Source: a virus
Taxonomy: Duplodnaviria > Heunggongvirae > Uroviricota > Caudoviricetes
IMG/VR virus record: IMGVR_UViG_2657245439_000019
Length of the DNA: 21,105 nt
Reading direction: 5' to 3' (one strand)
The notes beneath the pieces were generated by a model. The model saw only the letters and a program-made list of their open reading frames with translations, was not told the DNA's origin and searched no databases. Below are positions 5,776 through 21,105 of the stretch, piece by piece. The position numbers were made by a program, and so were the translations under genes. Numbering within the stretch: the first letter of the stretch is position 1; the number at the start of each line of letters is the position of its first letter.

Positions 5776-5990
5776 GTAAAAACACAACGTGATTTGATAT
5801 GGCATTGAATGGCTTATGCGGAGCAGTTATGGGGCAGCAGAAGGTCAATAGCATGCTGAATTAGAAGGCTAAATGCTATTGAGTGACTAGCATGTCGGTA
5901 AGGACAGCCGTTTGATCCGGGTCATAAAAGGCCATCCATTTAGTCTAATAAAATCATTGCGGGTAACCTTATGTCGACGCATAATTCGTC

Positions 5991-6005
5991 TTGAGCGAAG
6001 TCTTG
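5991..6005. repeat. 15-bp exact direct repeat, copy 1 (TTGAGCGAAGTCTTG)
   Basis: Identical 15-mer recurs at 6255-6269. The two copies bracket the bidirectional terminator and the small minus-strand ORF. Confidence 0.6.
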
Positions 6006-6035
6006 TCAGTCTTTCATCGTATTGATGATGGGCGC

Positions 6036-6069
6036 AAAAAAACCACCCTGGCAGGTGGTTTTTTTGTTT
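6036..6069. terminator. Bidirectional rho-independent terminator
   Basis: A-run (6036-6042), stem AACCACC (6041-6047), loop CTGGCA, stem GGTGGTT (6054-6060), then T-run (6059-6065). Symmetric A/T flanks allow termination on both strands. Confidence 0.65.
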
Positions 6070-6077
6070 GAAGCATA

Positions 6078-6191
6078 TTAAAGCATAATGCTGACATTGA
6101 TATTACTGACGTTTACTGACAAACCACTCGGACTACCGTTTGGATAGCCAAAGAGGGCCAGAACGAGAATGCAGTAATAGCATTTCTTCAT
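6078..6191 (-). CDS. Hypothetical small protein, 37 aa (MKKCYYCILVLALFGYPNGSPSGLSVNVSNINVSIML)
   Basis: ATG at 6189-6191 (minus) with AGGAGG Shine-Dalgarno 4 nt upstream. Stop at 6078-6080, followed by the bidirectional terminator. Hydrophobic N-terminal segment. An in-frame upstream ATG at 6344 would give 88 aa but has no RBS. Confidence 0.3.
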   Translation of the reverse strand: MKKCYYCILVLALFGYPNGSPSGLSVNVSNINVSIML

Positions 6192-6254
6192 ATTGCCTCC
6201 TGTAAGTAGAGGGCAACTTCCACCGGTATATGCGCTTCTTAGGTGGAATGACTT

Positions 6255-6269
6255 TTGAGCGAAGTCTTG
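6255..6269. repeat. 15-bp exact direct repeat, copy 2 (TTGAGCGAAGTCTTG)
   Basis: Identical to 5991-6005. Lies in the 5' leader region of the small minus-strand ORF. Confidence 0.6.
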
Positions 6270-6669
6270 CCCTGAAATAATGCTCTGTTTAAACGCAAAG
6301 TGATTTGGCATATCACCGAACAGAGAGCCGGAAAAACACAACATATAGTATGTCGTTGTTTCTAGACATACATTCTATGTTGTGTAACAAGGGCTTTGCA
6401 TTAAACATGTTTGAGATTTTATTGATGTAGCTCAAAGTAAAAAACAGAGACTACGGATGATAAGGTCTTGAAAGCAATGTAAATTTTTTAAGGTTGCCAA
6501 TTGCTTAAAAATGTACAGTTGCGGTATGGCGTACTTAAAAAGCTATGCATGCAACAAGTGAATGTTTTTGCATGCGTTGGGGATGTCCGTTCAGGCTGCG
6601 TGCGGTCAGGACTGGTGCGGATCCATAGTATCTATGCAACTGCATTAAAACCGCCCCGTGAAGCGGGCG

Positions 6670-6688
6670 GGCGAGGCGGGGAAAGCAC
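6670..6688. other. cos cohesive-end sequence (P2/P4 type)
   Basis: GGCGAGGCGGGGAAAGCAC at 6670-6688 matches the 19-nt P2 cohesive end as I remember it. It sits between the A-distal cargo and Q, where cos lies in a P2 prophage, with GC-rich dyad CCGCCCCGTGAAGCGGGCGG just upstream. Confidence 0.6.
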
Positions 6689-6830
6689 TGCGCGCTGGCG
6701 GTGGTGCTGATTTTATTTTTTCAGCGTCTCAGCGCGTCGTAATGGCGTTTAGATTGTGCGCCGGGGCGTTGGTTTGTCTGCGGGCTGTTTTGCGCGGTGG
6801 TGAGCGTGTGAGGGCGTGATGACGGGGTGT

Positions 6831-6852
6831 AAAAAAGCCGCCCGCAGGCGGC
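6831..6852 (-). terminator. Rho-independent terminator downstream of Q (minus strand)
   Basis: On the minus strand, stem GCCGCC, loop TGCG, stem GGCGGC, then TTTTTT, directly after the Q stop codon. Confidence 0.55.
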
Positions 6853-6857
6853 GATGT

Positions 6858-12670: not shown

Positions 12671-13180
12671 ATGATGACGCTGATTATTCCGCGAAAGGAG
12701 GCTCCTGTATCCGGTGAGGGTACGGTGGTCATCCCGCAACCGGCAGGCGACGAGCCGGTGATTAAAAACACGTTCTTTTTTCCCGATATCGACCCGAAGC
12801 GCGTCCGGGAACGTATGCGCCTTGAGCAGACCGTCGCCCCCGCCCGTCTGCGTGAGGCCATCAAGTCAGGCATGGCGGAGACGAATGCGGAGCTGTACGA
12901 GTACCGCGAACAGAAAATTGCCGCCGGTTTTACGCGTCTGGCGGACGTTCCGGCGGACGGCATCGACGGTGAAAGCATCAAAGTTTTTTACTACGAGCGC
13001 GCCGTGTGTGCGATGGCGACCGCGTCGCTTTATGAGCGTTATCGCGGCGTGGATGCCAGTGCGAAAGGCGACAAGAAGGCTGACAGCATTGACAGCACCA
13101 TTGATGAACTTTGGCGGGATATGCGCTGGGCGGTGGCGCGTATCCAGGACAAGCCGCGCTGCATCGTGAGTCAAATCTGA
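12671..13180 (+). CDS. L: Head completion / stabilisation protein gpL
   Basis: ORF 12611..13180. Chosen start is MMTLIIPRKEAPV... at 12671, with GAGGTAG RBS upstream, giving 169 aa like P2 L. Confidence 0.8.
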   Translation: MMTLIIPRKEAPVSGEGTVVIPQPAGDEPVIKNTFFFPDIDPKRVRERMRLEQTVAPARLREAIKSGMAETNAELYEYREQKIAAGFTRLADVPADGIDGESIKVFYYERAVCAMATASLYERYRGVDASAKGDKKADSIDSTIDELWRDMRWAVARIQDKPRCIVSQI

Positions 13181-13383
13181 TGAAGACCTTTGCGCTACAG
13201 GGCGACACGCTCGATGCCATTTGTGTCCGGTATTACGGGCGCACTGAGGGCGTGGTTGAGACCGTGCTCGCCGCAAATCCGGGACTGGCTGAACTGGGGG
13301 CGGTGCTGCCGCACGGCATCGCCGTCGAACTGCCAGACGTTCAGACCGCGCCCGTGGCTGAAACTGTCAATCTGTGGGAGTAA
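13180..13383 (+). CDS. X: Tail protein gpX
   Basis: 67-aa ORF starting at the ATG overlapping the L stop (TGATG): MKTFALQGDTLDAICVRYYGRTEG.... Confidence 0.75.
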   Translation: MKTFALQGDTLDAICVRYYGRTEGVVETVLAANPGLAELGAVLPHGIAVELPDVQTAPVAETVNLWE

Positions 13384-13386
13384 CGC

Positions 13387-13668
13387 ATGACAGCAGAAGA
13401 AAAAAGCGTCCTGTCGCTTTTCATGATTGGGGTGCTGATTGTTGTCGGCAAGGTGCTTGCCGGTGGTGAACCCATCACCCCGCGTCTGTTTATCGGGCGC
13501 ATGTTGCTCGGTGGTTTTGTCTCGATGGTTGCCGGTGTTGTTCTGGTGCAGTTTCCTGACCTGTCACTGCCTGCGGTGTGCGGTATCGGCTCCATGCTGG
13601 GTATCGCCGGTTATCAGGTGATTGAGATTGCCATTCAGCGCCGCTTTAAGGGCAGGGGGAAACAGTAA
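13387..13668 (+). CDS. Y: Holin gpY
   Basis: 93-aa ORF with hydrophobic transmembrane-like segments and a charged C-terminus (RRFKGRGKQ). First gene of the lysis cassette. Confidence 0.8.
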   Translation: MTAEEKSVLSLFMIGVLIVVGKVLAGGEPITPRLFIGRMLLGGFVSMVAGVVLVQFPDLSLPAVCGIGSMLGIAGYQVIEIAIQRRFKGRGKQ

Positions 13669-14165
13669 TGCCGGTAATTAACATGCATCAGAATATCGCC
13701 GCCTTTCTCGACATGCTGGCCGTGTCCGAAGGGACGGCGAACCATCCGCTGACGAAAAACCGGGGCTATGACGTGATAGTCACCGGACTGGATGGAAAGC
13801 CGGAAATCTTCACCGACTACAGTGACCACCCGTTCGCACATGGTCGACCGGCGAAGGTGTTTAACCGTCGCGGTGAAAAATCCACGGCCTCCGGTCGCTA
13901 TCAGCAGCTTTACCTGTTCTGGCCGCATTACCGCAAACAGCTTGCCCTGCCGGATTTCAGTCCGTTGTCACAGGACAGACTCGCCATTCAGTTGATCCGC
14001 GAACGCGGTGCGCTGGATGACATCCGGGCGGGACGCATTGAGCGCGCCATTTCACGCTGTTGCAATATCTGGGCGTCCCTGCCGGGTGCCGGTTACGGTC
14101 AGCGTGAGCATTCACTGGAAAAACTGGTCACCGTCTGGCGTACCGCTGGCGGCGTACCGGCTTAA
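13668..14165 (+). CDS. K: Endolysin (lysozyme) gpK
   Basis: 165-aa ORF with an E...D...T arrangement (AVSEGT...YDVIVTGLDG) typical of phage lysozymes. TAATG overlap with Y. Confidence 0.85.
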   Translation: MPVINMHQNIAAFLDMLAVSEGTANHPLTKNRGYDVIVTGLDGKPEIFTDYSDHPFAHGRPAKVFNRRGEKSTASGRYQQLYLFWPHYRKQLALPDFSPLSQDRLAIQLIRERGALDDIRAGRIERAISRCCNIWASLPGAGYGQREHSLEKLVTVWRTAGGVPA

Positions 14166-17997: not shown

Positions 17998-18601
17998 TTC
18001 GCGACTGCTGCCGACCGGCTCATCACCGCTTGAAGTCGCCGCCGCAAAAGCCTGTGCGGAAATTGAAAAAACGCCGGTCAGTATTCGTGAGCTGTGGAAC
18101 CCGGATACCTGTCCGGCAAATCTGCTGCCGTGGCTGGCGTGGTCATTTTCGGTTGACCGCTGGGATGATAAATGGCCGGAAGCGACAAAACGCGCTGTTA
18201 TCCGCGATGCGTATTTCATTCACTGCCATAAGGGCACTATAGGCGCAATCCGGCGTGTGGTGGAGCCGCTCGGCTATCTGATTGAGGTAAGGGAGTGGTG
18301 GCAGCTCAACGAGGAGCCGGGGACGTTCCGTATCGTTGTTGGTGTGCTTGAGCAGGGTATTACCGAGGAAATGTATCAGGAGCTGGAGCGCCTCGTTGCT
18401 GATGCAAAACCGGCAAGCCGCCATCTGACGGGACTGGCTATCAGCTTAAGTACAACCGGCAACATTTTTGCCGGTGCGGGATGCTATCACGGCGACGCCC
18501 TGACGGTTTATCCCTACACCCCGGAGGCCATTATTGTCGGAGGGGATTATTTCCCGGCCTCGGCCATTCATTTAATTGATAACCTGAGAGTAAACGCATG
18601 A
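17990..18601 (+). CDS. I: Baseplate protein gpI
   Basis: 203-aa ORF between J and the tail fibre gene, overlapping both. Confidence 0.8.
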   Translation: MSDSRLLPTGSSPLEVAAAKACAEIEKTPVSIRELWNPDTCPANLLPWLAWSFSVDRWDDKWPEATKRAVIRDAYFIHCHKGTIGAIRRVVEPLGYLIEVREWWQLNEEPGTFRIVVGVLEQGITEEMYQELERLVADAKPASRHLTGLAISLSTTGNIFAGAGCYHGDALTVYPYTPEAIIVGGDYFPASAIHLIDNLRVNA

Positions 18602-20112
18602 CAGTGAAATACTACGCCATTCTGACTAATCAGGGCGCAGCACGGCTGGCTAACGCGACGATGCTCGGCAGTAAGCTGAATCTGACGCAAATGGCCGTTG
18701 GTGATGCGAATGGTGTCTTGCCGACACCAGACCCGGCACAGACAAAACTGATTAACCAGAAACGCATCGCGCCGCTGAATCTTCTGAGTGTTGACCCGAA
18801 CAACCAGAGCCAGATTATTGCGGAGCAAATCATCCCTGAGAACGAGGGCGGATTCTGGATCCGTGAGATTGGGCTTTATGATGATGAAGGCGTACTCATT
18901 GCGGTGGCGAACTGCCCGGAAACGTACAAACCGCAGTTACAGGAAGGCAGTGGTCGTACCCAGACTATCCGCATGATTCTGGTTGTCACGAATACCGAAG
19001 CCATCACGCTGAAAATCGACCCGTCGGTGGTACTGGCGACCCGTAAATACGTGGATGATGAAGTCCTGGAATTAAGGCTGTATGTGGATGACCAGATGAG
19101 AAACCACATTGCCGCACAGGATCCTCATACCCAGTATGCACAGAAACATAATCCGACATTTACCGGAGAACCAAAAGCGCCGACGCCTGCCGCAGGGAAT
19201 AACACCACGCGGATTGCGACCACTGAGCTTGTTCAGGCCGCTATTACCGCTCTGATTAACGGCGCGCCAGCCACGCTGGACACACTGAAAGAAATTGCCG
19301 CAGCCATTAACAATGACCCGAAATTCAGCACCACCATTAACAATGCGCTGGCACTGAAAGCGCCGCTGTCGAGTCCCGCACTTACCGGAACGCCAACAGC
19401 ACCTACTGCGGCACAGTCGGTCAACAATACACAGATTGCCACCACGGCTTTTGTGAAATCAGCAATTGCGGCAATGGTGGGTTCTGCCCCTGCGGCACTG
19501 GATACACTGAATGAACTGGCGGCGGCGCTGGGGAATGACCCTAACTTTTCAACAACAGTGCTTAATGCACTGGCAGGCAAACAACCGCTGGACAATACGC
19601 TTACTAATTTGAGTGGAAAGGATGTGGCTGGTCTTCTCGCATACCTTGGTTTGGGAGAAGGTTCTGCGTTGCCTGTTGGCGTACCAGTTCCTTGGCCTTC
19701 AGCTACGCCGCCGACAGGCTGGCTGAAATGCAACGGGGCTGCTTTTTCGGCTGAAGAATACCCGGAGCTGGCAAAGGCTTACCCGACAAATAAATTGCCT
19801 GATTTACGCGGTGAATTTATTCGTGGCTGGGATGACGGACGTGGAGTGGATGCCGGGCGACAATTATTATCTTCACAGGGGGATGCAATAAGAAATATTG
19901 AGGGATTCGCAGATGGCGGGATCGGCATGTCTTTTGATGCAATCAGAGGGGCTTTTTACGATGCAGGAACACGATCAGCGACAATGGCGAATAACACAAC
20001 TGCTATAGGCAAAACCGATGACCTTGGATTCGACGCCTCTCGTGTCGTGCCAACAGCTAATGAAAACCGTCCACGTAACATCGCCTTTAATTATATTGTG
20101 AGGGCTGCATAA
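18598..20112 (+). CDS. H: Tail fibre protein gpH, with a probable switchable C-terminal domain
   Basis: 504-aa ORF. N-terminus MTVKYYAILTNQGAARLANA... is typical of P2 H / Mu S fibres. Internal repeated motif NNT-x-IATT...LDTL...NDP-x-FSTT. Hin/Gin-like crossover site at codons ~346-354. Confidence 0.85.
   Translation: MTVKYYAILTNQGAARLANATMLGSKLNLTQMAVGDANGVLPTPDPAQTKLINQKRIAPLNLLSVDPNNQSQIIAEQIIPENEGGFWIREIGLYDDEGVLIAVANCPETYKPQLQEGSGRTQTIRMILVVTNTEAITLKIDPSVVLATRKYVDDEVLELRLYVDDQMRNHIAAQDPHTQYAQKHNPTFTGEPKAPTPAAGNNTTRIATTELVQAAITALINGAPATLDTLKEIAAAINNDPKFSTTINNALALKAPLSSPALTGTPTAPTAAQSVNNTQIATTAFVKSAIAAMVGSAPAALDTLNELAAALGNDPNFSTTVLNALAGKQPLDNTLTNLSGKDVAGLLAYLGLGEGSALPVGVPVPWPSATPPTGWLKCNGAAFSAEEYPELAKAYPTNKLPDLRGEFIRGWDDGRGVDAGRQLLSSQGDAIRNIEGFADGGIGMSFDAIRGAFYDAGTRSATMANNTTAIGKTDDLGFDASRVVPTANENRPRNIAFNYIVRAA
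19634..19659. other. Candidate DNA-invertase crossover site (hix/gix-like) inside H
   Basis: TTCTCGCATACCTTGGTTTGGGAGAA is a 26-bp imperfect palindrome (TTCTC...GAGAA arms, ACC-TT-GGT core). It matches hixR (TTATCAAAAACCTTGGTTTTCAAGAA, from memory) at 19 of 26 positions. Confidence 0.5.
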
Positions 20113-20705
20113 TGAAACCTGTTTTTGATGAAAATGGGCTGGCTACAGTACCGGGTAATATGCGTTGTTTTTATTATGAGGCAGTTACGTATGAATATAC
20201 TGGCTGGTCTGATGAATATATTAATACTGGCGTAAGTATGCCCGCTTGTTCCACTGGTATTGACCCGGGCGAATACATTCCGGGAAGAGTGGCAGTATTT
20301 ACGGGTAAGGGATGGAGCCATGAAGAAGACCATCGCAATGAGACTGTTTACTCAACAGAAAATGGCGCAGCTGTTACAGTGGATTATATCGGTGCCATCA
20401 AAGACGGTTATGTCACGCTTTCACCGTTAACGCCATACGATAAATGGGATGGTGAGAAATGGGTGACGGATACCGAGGCACAGCATAGCGCCGCACTAGA
20501 CGCGGCAGAAGCACAGCGCCAGTCACTGATTGATGCAGCAATGGCTTCCATTAGTCTGATTCAGCTGAAATTACAGGCCGGACGGAAACTGACTCAGGCA
20601 GAAACAACCCGACTTAACGCCGTGCTGGATTACATTGACGCGGTGACGGCAACAGATACCAGCACCGCGCCGGATGTCATCTGGCCTGAACTGCCGGAGG
20701 CGTAG
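20112..20705 (+). CDS. G: Tail fibre assembly protein gpG (Tfa)
   Basis: 197-aa ORF coupled to H (TAATG). C-terminus ...[16 protein letters not shown] is the conserved Tfa tail. Confidence 0.8.
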
Positions 20706-21105
20706 GCCATTCAATATCGGGTGCTGTTGAAGTATCAACACGCATCAGCAGCACACGGTATTTCTTCCATTCGGTGAGAGTTGAAGTTTCTTCATCAGTT
20801 GCGATATCAGCATCAACAGCATCCTGACGCCAGGATATTTCACTGTCAGCTTTTTCCCGTAATTGGGATTTTTTAACTTCAGCAATAGCTATTAATTCCT
20901 TTTTGGTCGGCTGAGGAATATCTATCAGTGCTGGTTTTCCATTCAGTGTTCCAATCTGTTTTCCTGGTGGAATATCCATAAATAACTTTTTATGTTCTTC
21001 CTCACTGACTATTACACCATCATCAGGCCACAGACCTGATGCCTCAAATTTTTCTTTCTCCGATATGGGGAAAAAGCCATTTGCTTTAGCGCTCCATACG
21101 TACAT
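20677..21105 (-). CDS. Second, inverted tail fibre assembly protein (alternative Tfa); start at or beyond the window edge
   Basis: Minus-strand ORF ending ...[31 protein letters not shown], close to the lambda Tfa C-terminus as I recall it. It converges on G and overlaps it by 29 bp. The first ATG is at 21103-21105, so the true start may lie outside the window. Confidence 0.75.

What the first reader, a model, noticed from the sequence alone, without database searches (positions are those of the whole stretch)
19634..19659. Hin/Gin-type crossover site inside tail fibre gene H
A 26-bp imperfect palindrome with the ACC-TT-GGT core of hix/gix/cix sites sits in frame within H at about codon 346. 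This is the arrangement used by Mu gin and P1 cin to swap tail-fibre C-termini and host range. The sequence downstream of this point would be the invertible segment. The second site and the invertase gene should lie past the window end.
Basis: partly seen in the sequence, partly recalled or inferred. Interest (0 to 1): 0.65.

Follow-up and report, generated by a model that had tools for sequence, protein, structure and literature searches.

The report
Invertible tail-fibre switch in P2-like prophage
The 26-bp palindrome is a real DNA-invertase crossover site that lets this P2-like E. coli prophage flip a 1.76-kb segment and swap the tip of its tail fibre, which is a well-known kind of host-range switch and not a new one.

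Summary
The observation and the interpretation both hold. Window 19634-19659 (TTCTCGCATACC-TT-GGTTTGGGAGAA) lies in frame in tail-fibre gene H (18598-20112). It spans codons 346-354, and the TT core falls in Leu-350. A pattern built only from the phage Mu gix sites hits this position and nowhere else in the window, with 0 hits expected.

The window comes from contig JHTH01000018.1 of GCA_001266385.1, which runs 517 nt past the window end. There it carries the predicted second site (TTCTCCAAAACC-AA-CGTTTTATGGAA) in inverted orientation, 1757 bp away core to core. Flipping the segment in silico gives an intact 447-aa alternative H.

The closest complete genome is E. coli elppa4 (99.8% over the window). 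It has an intact 197-aa serine invertase about 650 bp beyond the second site: 78% identical to Mu Gin and 88% to e14 PinE.

Natural inversions confirm the crossover point. Assemblies of strain ST2747 differ by an exact 1911-bp inversion with half-site exchange at the core. Two near-identical soil isolates differ by an exact 1905-bp inversion.

This is a Pin/Gin-type system, already documented for P2-like prophages. It is a new member of a known kind and of low interest. Activity in this particular genome was not shown.

The parts
18598..20112 (+). Tail-fibre gene H in the orientation now expressed (504 aa)
   Evidence: ORF. Pfam Phage_tail_fib (residues 1-150) and Collar (361-408). Annotated 'phage tail protein' in elppa4, downstream of tail protein I.
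18598..19647 (+). Constant part of H (codons 1-350), kept in both orientations
   Evidence: The in-silico flipped ORF and the real LP50-1 protein share this part. Many genomes match up to the site and then diverge.
19634..19659 (+). Left 26-bp crossover site (pix/gix type), TTCTCGCATACC-TT-GGTTTGGGAGAA, with the core dinucleotide at 19646-19647
   Evidence: It is 23/26 identical to the left site of e14. Half-site exchange at this site is seen in LP50-1 versus LR-21-1 and in ST2747.
19648..20112 (+). Variable C-terminus Hv (codons 351-504, Collar domain); first part of the invertible segment
   Evidence: Found inverted next to the right site in ST2747 CP007392, MEI2O1-23 and four other genomes.
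20112..20705 (+). Tail-fibre assembly gene (197 aa, P2 G-like), the chaperone paired with Hv; inside the invertible segment
   Evidence: Pfam Caudo_TAP. Annotated 'tail fiber assembly protein'.
20677..21105 (-). Second tail-fibre assembly gene (142 aa) in inverted orientation, paired with the alternative C-terminus; not downstream of H in this orientation
   Evidence: Pfam Caudo_TAP. The same protein accession, WP_000289820.1, lies directly downstream of H in the flipped prophage of LP50-1.

Best explanation
The site is the left recombination site of a Pin/Gin/Cin/Hin-family DNA inversion switch in a P2-like (Peduoviridae) prophage.

The invertible segment is 1757 bp. It runs from the TT core at window 19646-19647 to an AA core that would sit at about window 21401-21402 on the source contig. 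It contains four elements: the C-terminal 154 codons of H (Collar type), its assembly gene, an inverted second assembly gene, and an inverted alternative 97-codon H C-terminus (gp53-like type).

The proposed mechanism is as follows. A small serine invertase is encoded just beyond the right site. It binds both 26-bp sites and cuts both strands at the central dinucleotide. One pair of subunits rotates by 180 degrees and the ends are rejoined. The matching TT/AA overhangs allow rejoining only as an inversion. The constant 350 codons of H, read from the late operon upstream, are thereby fused to one or the other C-terminus. Only the assembly gene on the same strand sits downstream of H. The phage therefore makes particles with one of two receptor-binding tips.

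Shown here: the two sites, their orientation and matching cores; both alternative ORFs intact; an intact Gin-family invertase in the nearest complete relative; and natural inversions whose breakpoints map to the site core.

Inferred from knowledge of the family: dependence on Fis and an enhancer in the 5' end of the invertase gene, the cleavage chemistry, and the effect on host range.
For: - **Site and chance.** The site is real and matches a Mu-derived pattern far beyond chance.
- **Source contig.** The source contig (L005) is identical to the last 7508 nt of the window. It holds a second match, TTCTCCAAAACCAACGTTTTATGGAA, at L005 7792-7817 with the complementary core.
- **Alternative ORF.** In-silico inversion gives an intact 447-aa H'. 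Its C-terminus matches the real 447-aa tail protein of LP50-1.
- **Flipped relative.** LP50-1 carries the same two module pairs in mirror order. Its sites are exactly the half-site recombinants predicted from the LR-21-1/window arrangement.
- **ST2747.** Assemblies CP007394 and CP007392 have the same left outer half-site as the window, the same right outer half-site as the window's source, and an intact invertase. They differ by a 1911-bp segment that is 100% identical as a reverse complement. A single-base marker in the inner half-sites swaps sides as predicted for crossover at the core.
- **Soil isolates.** MEI2O1-23 and MEI1A-0323 have chromosomes of 4,849,042 and 4,849,041 bp. Over 7364 nt they are identical except for an exact 1905-bp inversion bounded by the sites.
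- **Invertase.** The elppa4 invertase has Resolvase plus HTH_7 domains and scores E = 6e-94 against Gin structure 3UJ3. It is 77.7% identical to Gin, 87.8% to PinE and 98.5% to the 'hin' of Salmonella phage MET_P1_103_31. It matches phrog_125, 'DNA invertase'.
- **Family-specific residues.** It has a catalytic Ser-9, basic residues K46, K47 and R50, and the EQAGRLL motif shared with Gin. These correspond to the positions that PMC3798978 describes as contacting Fis and the enhancer and as conserved only in DNA invertases.
- **Literature.** P2-like prophage tail-fibre inversions in E. coli were shown experimentally (PMC4272514).
Against: - The invertase gene was not seen in the window's own genome. 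The source contig ends 517 nt past the window, before the invertase position.
- In this lineage a cassette of about 650 bp replaces the outer flank of the right site, starting 5 nt beyond the core. The outer half-site therefore differs (CGTTTTATGGAA versus CGTTTATGAAAA), and the invertase start lies 654.5 bp from the core where relatives have 68.5 bp.
- In the MEI isolates the adjacent invertase gene is disrupted, so that inversion may have been catalysed in trans.
- The candidate Fis sites were placed only by homology and by memory of the Hin enhancer. They were not tested.
- No read-level data were available to show both orientations within this one strain.
Confidence: 0.9

Rival explanations
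1. The site is a genuine Pin-type crossover site, but in this particular genome the switch is locked. The invertase would be lost or inactive, or the altered right outer half-site would no longer be bound, leaving only the Collar-type fibre.
For: The invertase was not observed on the source contig. The right outer half-site was replaced by cassette sequence. The related MEI prophages carry a frameshifted invertase. elppa4 has a +1 frameshift in the alternative C-terminus, which shows that parts of these switches do decay.
Against: ST2747 has the same right outer half-site, the same cassette and an intact invertase, and it occurs in both orientations. The nearest relative, elppa4, has an intact invertase. 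In the source contig both alternative C-termini and both assembly genes are intact. Invertases of this family act in trans on each other's sites (established knowledge of Gin, Cin, Pin and Hin).
Confidence: 0.08
2. The inversions seen in related genomes arise by general (RecA-dependent) homologous recombination between short inverted repeats, and the resemblance of the palindrome to gix/pix sites plays no part.
For: The two sites share a 14-23 bp inverted repeat, so homologous exchange cannot be excluded in principle.
Against: Repeats of 14-23 bp are very poor substrates for RecA. In ST2747 the exchange point maps to the 8 bp that include the core. In LP50-1 versus LR-21-1 it maps between the two half-sites. 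A Gin-family invertase gene is always adjacent. The sites are 23/26 identical to those of e14. The e14 P segment was described as Pin-invertible by Plasterk and van de Putte 1985, and its inversion was re-confirmed by sequencing and PCR in PMC4272514.
Confidence: 0.015
3. The palindrome is only a by-product of coding for a conserved peptide (LLAYLGLGE) and has no function at the DNA level.
For: The site is entirely coding, and the peptide is conserved among H homologues.
Against: A second copy in inverted orientation lies exactly at the start of the alternative C-terminus. Homology blocks in phages and in more than a thousand E. coli genomes break at this site. Exact inversions are bounded by it.
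Confidence: 0.005

Closest known systems
P segment / PinE of the defective prophage e14 of E. coli K-12 (Plasterk and van de Putte 1985; inversion re-confirmed by sequencing and PCR in PMC4272514)
   Same: The left site is 23/26 identical (CTCTCGAAAACCTTGGTTTGGGAGAA in e14). The cores are the same TT/AA. The e14 right site is identical to that of the related P2-like phage MET_P1_103_31. PinE is 87.8% identical to the elppa4 invertase. The layout is the same: stf constant part, variable part, tfa, inverted tfa, inverted variable part, invertase.
   Different: e14 is a decayed lambdoid remnant with a pseudogenised stfE. Here the switch sits in an apparently complete P2-like prophage, and both alternative fibres are intact in the source contig. 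This lineage also has an extra 105-codon gene between the right site and the invertase.
G segment / Gin of phage Mu
   Same: Two 26-bp gix sites sit at the constant/variable junction of tail-fibre gene S. There are two variable ends and two assembly genes (U, U'), and the invertase lies just outside the right site. The core-to-ATG distance is 67.5 bp in Mu and 68.5 bp in related P2-like loci. The invertase is 77.7% identical to Gin.
   Different: The core dinucleotide is TC/GA in Mu and TT/AA here. The Mu segment is about 3 kb and this one is 1.76 kb. The phage backbone differs (Mu versus P2). In the window's lineage the invertase is displaced to 654.5 bp.
Invertible tail-fibre loci of the P2-like prophages of EPEC E2348/69 (PMC4272514), and the DNA invertases noted in the P2 Z/fun hotspot (bioRxiv 10.1101/2024.10.15.618418)
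   Same: The phage family is the same, and so is the position between the tail-fibre genes and the sheath gene FI. The same mechanism was reported: an invertase plus inverted repeats giving alternative fibre C-termini. Both orientations were shown to coexist in cultures.
   Different: I did not compare those loci at the sequence level. One EPEC locus has three repeats and four variants, whereas only two sites are found here.
Hin / H segment of Salmonella and Cin / C segment of phage P1
   Same: Same recombinase subfamily and same 26-bp site architecture. The invertase-specific residues that contact Fis and the enhancer (PMC3798978) are conserved.
   Different: Hin flips a promoter and not a coding end. 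The similarity to the hix and cix sites rests on sequences I recalled from memory, so it is only a lead.

Membership tests
Gin/Cin/Pin/Hin (Fis-dependent) DNA inversion systems | Two 26-bp recombination sites, each made of two imperfectly symmetric 12-bp half-sites around a 2-bp core | tested here: met
   The left site is in the window. The right site is on the source contig at L005 7792-7817. Both match a pattern built from the Mu gix sites with at most 3 mismatches, against 0 expected.
Gin/Cin/Pin/Hin (Fis-dependent) DNA inversion systems | The sites are in inverted orientation and have identical core dinucleotides, so that religation gives an inversion | tested here: met
   On the same strand the core is TT at the left site and AA at the right site. 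The inner half-sites form the inverted repeat (I2).
Gin/Cin/Pin/Hin (Fis-dependent) DNA inversion systems | An adjacent small serine recombinase (Resolvase catalytic domain with an N-terminal Ser, C-terminal HTH_7) of the invertase subclass | tested here: inconclusive
   Met in elppa4, the 99.8%-identical prophage: 197 aa, Resolvase plus HTH_7, E = 6e-94 against Gin, Ser-9. It could not be seen in the window's own genome, because the contig ends before that position.
Gin/Cin/Pin/Hin (Fis-dependent) DNA inversion systems | A recombinational enhancer with two Fis sites in cis, and dependence on Fis | not testable with these tools
   There are only indirect signs. The 5' end of the invertase gene is homologous to that of gin. 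The residues reported to contact Fis and the enhancer are conserved (PMC3798978). The distance from the core to position +29 of the gene is 96.5 bp in four related loci and 95.5 bp in Mu, but 682.5 bp in this lineage. No binding or fis-mutant data are available.
Gin/Cin/Pin/Hin (Fis-dependent) DNA inversion systems | The segment is found in both orientations, with the exchange at the core | tested here: met
   Not shown within the source strain itself. Shown for prophages with the same sites: ST2747, the MEI pair, and LP50-1 versus LR-21-1. For this module pair, 53 genomes carry the window's junction and 4 carry the flipped junction.
Phage tail-fibre host-range switches (Mu S/U, P1 S/U type) | Inversion fuses one constant N-terminal part to alternative C-termini, each with its own assembly chaperone gene | tested here: met
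   The two products are 504 aa (Collar type) and 447 aa (gp53-like type), both intact in the source contig. The two Caudo_TAP genes are on opposite strands.
Phage tail-fibre host-range switches (Mu S/U, P1 S/U type) | The two forms adsorb to different receptors or hosts | not testable with these tools
   Inferred only from the unrelated C-terminal domains (PF07484 versus PF21882).

The most novel reading that the evidence does not exclude
In this lineage a cassette of about 650 bp, carrying an uncharacterised 105-codon gene (WP_025210643.1), begins inside the outer half of the right crossover site. It pushes the invertase gene, and with it the presumed enhancer, from about 97 bp to about 683 bp from the site.

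The most novel reading not excluded is that the cassette was captured by invertase-mediated recombination at the crossover site itself, so that inversion sites double as entry points for cargo genes in the P2 Z/fun hotspot. A second part of this reading is that the longer site-to-enhancer loop changes how the switch is controlled.

Related to this, the MEI isolates inverted even though their own invertase gene is broken by an expanded 8-nt repeat. That would fit control of the switch in trans, or a repeat-length on/off state of the invertase.
Probability: 0.1. Interest if true: 0.45.

Novelty: new member of a known kind. Interest (0 to 1): 0.15.

Why it matters
For annotation, it explains three things: why two tail-fibre assembly genes face each other, why an apparently orphan fibre fragment follows them, and why draft assemblies tend to break here. 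It also predicts that lysogens of this prophage release two particle types with different receptor-binding tips. This matters for anyone inferring host range from a single assembled orientation. It does not open a new question. The mechanism has been textbook knowledge since the work on Mu, P1, e14 and Salmonella Hin, and it has been shown for P2-like prophages of E. coli.

Tried and rejected
- **Circular pattern.** My first pattern was derived from the site itself, so I replaced it with one derived only from Mu gix.
- **Fis-site regex.** A simple Fis consensus regex on the 5' ends of the invertase genes found one shared match at +71 to +85 in Mu gin, elppa4 and MET, but none in LR-21-1, LP50-1 or phage 500465-2. 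That is too weak to claim an enhancer. The eLife paper gave positions only indirectly.
- **Source of the window.** I looked for an exact source among complete E. coli genomes, and the best was elppa4 at 99.8%. An exact-protein look-up of H then found the real source contig, but that contig stops before the invertase.
- **The 105-aa gene.** I tried to identify the extra gene with Pfam, NCBIfam, PHROGs and PADLOC, and by tblastn against phages and plasmids. There was nothing except one weak hit on a Kosakonia plasmid.
- **Third site.** I searched for a third crossover site, which would indicate a multiple-inversion system. None was found at up to 4 mismatches.
- **RNA families.** An Rfam scan of the window found nothing.
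- **Recalled site sequences.** The similarity scores to hix, gix and cix used sequences recalled from memory, and I did not rely on them.

Full report
**What is at the coordinates**

Window 19634-19659 reads TTCTCGCATACCTTGGTTTGGGAGAA. It consists of two 12-bp arms that are complementary at 10 of 12 positions, around a central TT. It lies inside the 504-codon ORF 18598-20112. It begins at the second base of codon 346, and the TT forms positions 2-3 of Leu-350.

The ORF has the N-terminal tail-collar fibre domain and a Collar domain. It follows homologues of P2 genes V, W, J and I. The whole window is the left two thirds of a P2-like prophage, which in the closest complete genome is integrated next to cpxP. 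Calling the ORF 'gene H' is therefore correct.

To test the site against chance without circularity, I read the two gix sites from the Mu record. I turned their half-sites into the degenerate pattern TTMYYSWAAACCNNGGTTTWSRRKAA. With up to three mismatches this pattern hits the window once, at exactly these coordinates, and hits none of 100 shuffles.

**What lies past the window end**

An exact-sequence look-up of the H protein found a single contig, JHTH01000018.1 of GCA_001266385.1. Its sequence is identical to the last 7508 nt of the window and continues for 517 nt more.

In that extension the Mu-derived pattern finds a second site, TTCTCCAAAACCAACGTTTTATGGAA. It lies 284-309 nt beyond window position 21105. 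Its core is AA on the strand where the first site has TT, so the two sites are inverted relative to each other with matching cores. The segment between them is 1757 bp.

The segment holds four elements:
- the last 154 codons of H;
- a 197-codon assembly gene (20112-20705);
- a 142-codon assembly gene on the other strand (20677-21105);
- beyond the window, an inverted 97-codon C-terminus of the gp53-like type.

Inverting the segment in silico joins codon 350 of H in frame to that C-terminus and gives an intact 447-aa protein.

**The recombinase**

The source contig ends before any recombinase gene. The prophage of E. coli elppa4 is 99.8% identical over the whole window and 100% identical over its last 2106 nt. 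It has a 197-codon gene on the + strand about 650 bp beyond the second site, followed by the sheath gene FI.

The protein has the following properties:
- a Resolvase domain plus HTH_7;
- a match to the Gin structures 3UJ3 and 4M6F at E = 6e-94 over residues 1-182;
- 77.7% identity to Gin and 87.8% to PinE of e14;
- 98.5% identity to the annotated 'hin' of the P2-like Salmonella phage MET_P1_103_31;
- a match to the PHROG 'DNA invertase' family;
- Ser-9 in the GYVRVS motif, and the basic residues and the EQAGRLL motif shared with Gin. PMC3798978 describes the corresponding Hin positions as contacts with Fis and the enhancer that are conserved only among DNA invertases.

**Do such segments actually invert at this site?**

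Three natural comparisons say yes.

(a) LR-21-1 has the window's arrangement. LP50-1 has the mirror arrangement, with the 142-aa assembly protein (same accession as in the window) directly after a 447-aa H. The LP50-1 left site is the window's left outer half joined to the reverse complement of the right inner half, exactly as predicted for exchange at the core.

(b) Two assemblies of strain ST2747 carry the same left outer half-site as the window. They also carry the same right outer half-site as the window's source, and an intact invertase. They differ by a 1911-bp segment that is 100% identical as a reverse complement. A single-base difference between the inner half-sites moves with the segment. 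This places the exchange within the 8 bp that include the core.

(c) Two soil isolates have chromosomes that differ by 1 bp in length. Over 7364 nt they are identical except for an exact 1905-bp inversion bounded by the sites.

Across 5426 complete E. coli genomes, the window's junction for this module pair is found full-length in 53 genomes and the flipped junction in 4. The site is also a mosaic boundary. Phage and genome matches to H stop or start within a few bases of it.

**Mechanism**

I take the mechanism to be the one established for this family. Invertase dimers bind the two sites and assemble with a Fis-bound enhancer on supercoiled DNA. Both strands are cut at the central dinucleotide, one subunit pair rotates by 180 degrees, and the ends are religated. 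The TT/AA overhangs allow only inversion.

Transcription enters from the late operon through the constant part of H. Only the variable end and assembly gene that face the same way are therefore expressed.

Of this chain, four links are shown here: the sites, the ORFs, the invertase homologue and the natural inversions. The rest is inferred: Fis dependence, the cleavage chemistry and the host-range consequence.

**Comparison with known systems**

The nearest classical system is the P segment of e14. Its left site is 23/26 identical to the window's, the cores are the same, and the invertase is 88% identical. The layout is also that of the Mu G segment.

Inversion of tail-fibre segments in P2-like prophages of E. 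coli has been demonstrated by sequencing and PCR (PMC4272514). DNA invertases with inverted neighbours have been noted in the P2 Z/fun hotspot (bioRxiv 10.1101/2024.10.15.618418). This locus is therefore another member of a known kind.

**What is particular to this lineage**

Four related loci have their invertase start 68.5 bp from the core, and Mu has 67.5 bp. In elppa4, ST2747, the MEI isolates and the window's source the distance is about 655 bp. The cause is a cassette of about 650 bp that begins five bases beyond the core of the right site.

The cassette carries a 105-codon gene on the minus strand. That gene has no match in Pfam, NCBIfam, PHROGs or PADLOC. It has no match in 50,697 phage records and only one weak plasmid match. 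ST2747 shows that the switch still inverts with this cassette present. What the gene does is unknown.

**Limits**

Activity in the source strain itself was not shown. Its invertase gene was not seen and no reads were available. The enhancer was not demonstrated.

Noticed in passing
L002 8408-9055 (elppa4); the first part is also on the source contig at L005 7809-8025, just past the window end: A cassette of about 650 bp with a 105-codon minus-strand gene (WP_025210643.1) sits between the right crossover site and the invertase. It begins 5 nt beyond the core, so it replaces most of the outer half-site. It moves the invertase start from 68.5 bp to 654.5 bp from the core. It has no hit in Pfam, NCBIfam, PHROGs or PADLOC, none in the phage collection, and one weak hit on a Kosakonia plasmid.
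   Followed up: partly
L008 4361-4986 and L009 4170-4795 (E. coli MEI2O1-23 and MEI1A-0323): The invertase gene is disrupted by an expansion of the 8-nt unit TCTGGTAG (5 copies versus 1, adding 32 nt). It also carries an Arg-7 to His change in the GYVRVS motif. Even so, these two near-identical isolates differ in the orientation of the segment. Either another invertase acted in trans or the gene was inactivated recently.
   Followed up: partly
L002 8290-8300 (elppa4), beyond the window end: In elppa4 the alternative H C-terminus has one extra C in a C-run (6 versus 5), which frameshifts it. The window's source contig, LR-21-1 and LP50-1 all have 5 C and an intact frame. This could be a real mutation or a homopolymer sequencing error.
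   Followed up: partly
window 5776-6857: About 1.08 kb between the replication endonuclease gene (P2 gene A type) and the portal gene has no annotated gene in elppa4. It has no ORF longer than 88 codons and no Rfam match. In P2 this interval holds cos and a variable cargo region.
   Followed up: partly
window 13108-14061: From window position 13000 onwards, 22 of the 23 differences between the window and elppa4 cluster in this stretch of about 950 bp in the lysis-gene region. The last 1877 nt are identical. This looks like a small recombination patch.
   Followed up: no
window 19646-19660: Homology to other phages and prophages switches at the crossover site. Phages S164 and pro483 match H only up to window position 19660, and phage SKA5 matches only from 19646 onwards. 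O157:H7 prophages are 99.8% identical up to the site and then diverge. The site is therefore also a boundary for module exchange between phages.
   Followed up: partly
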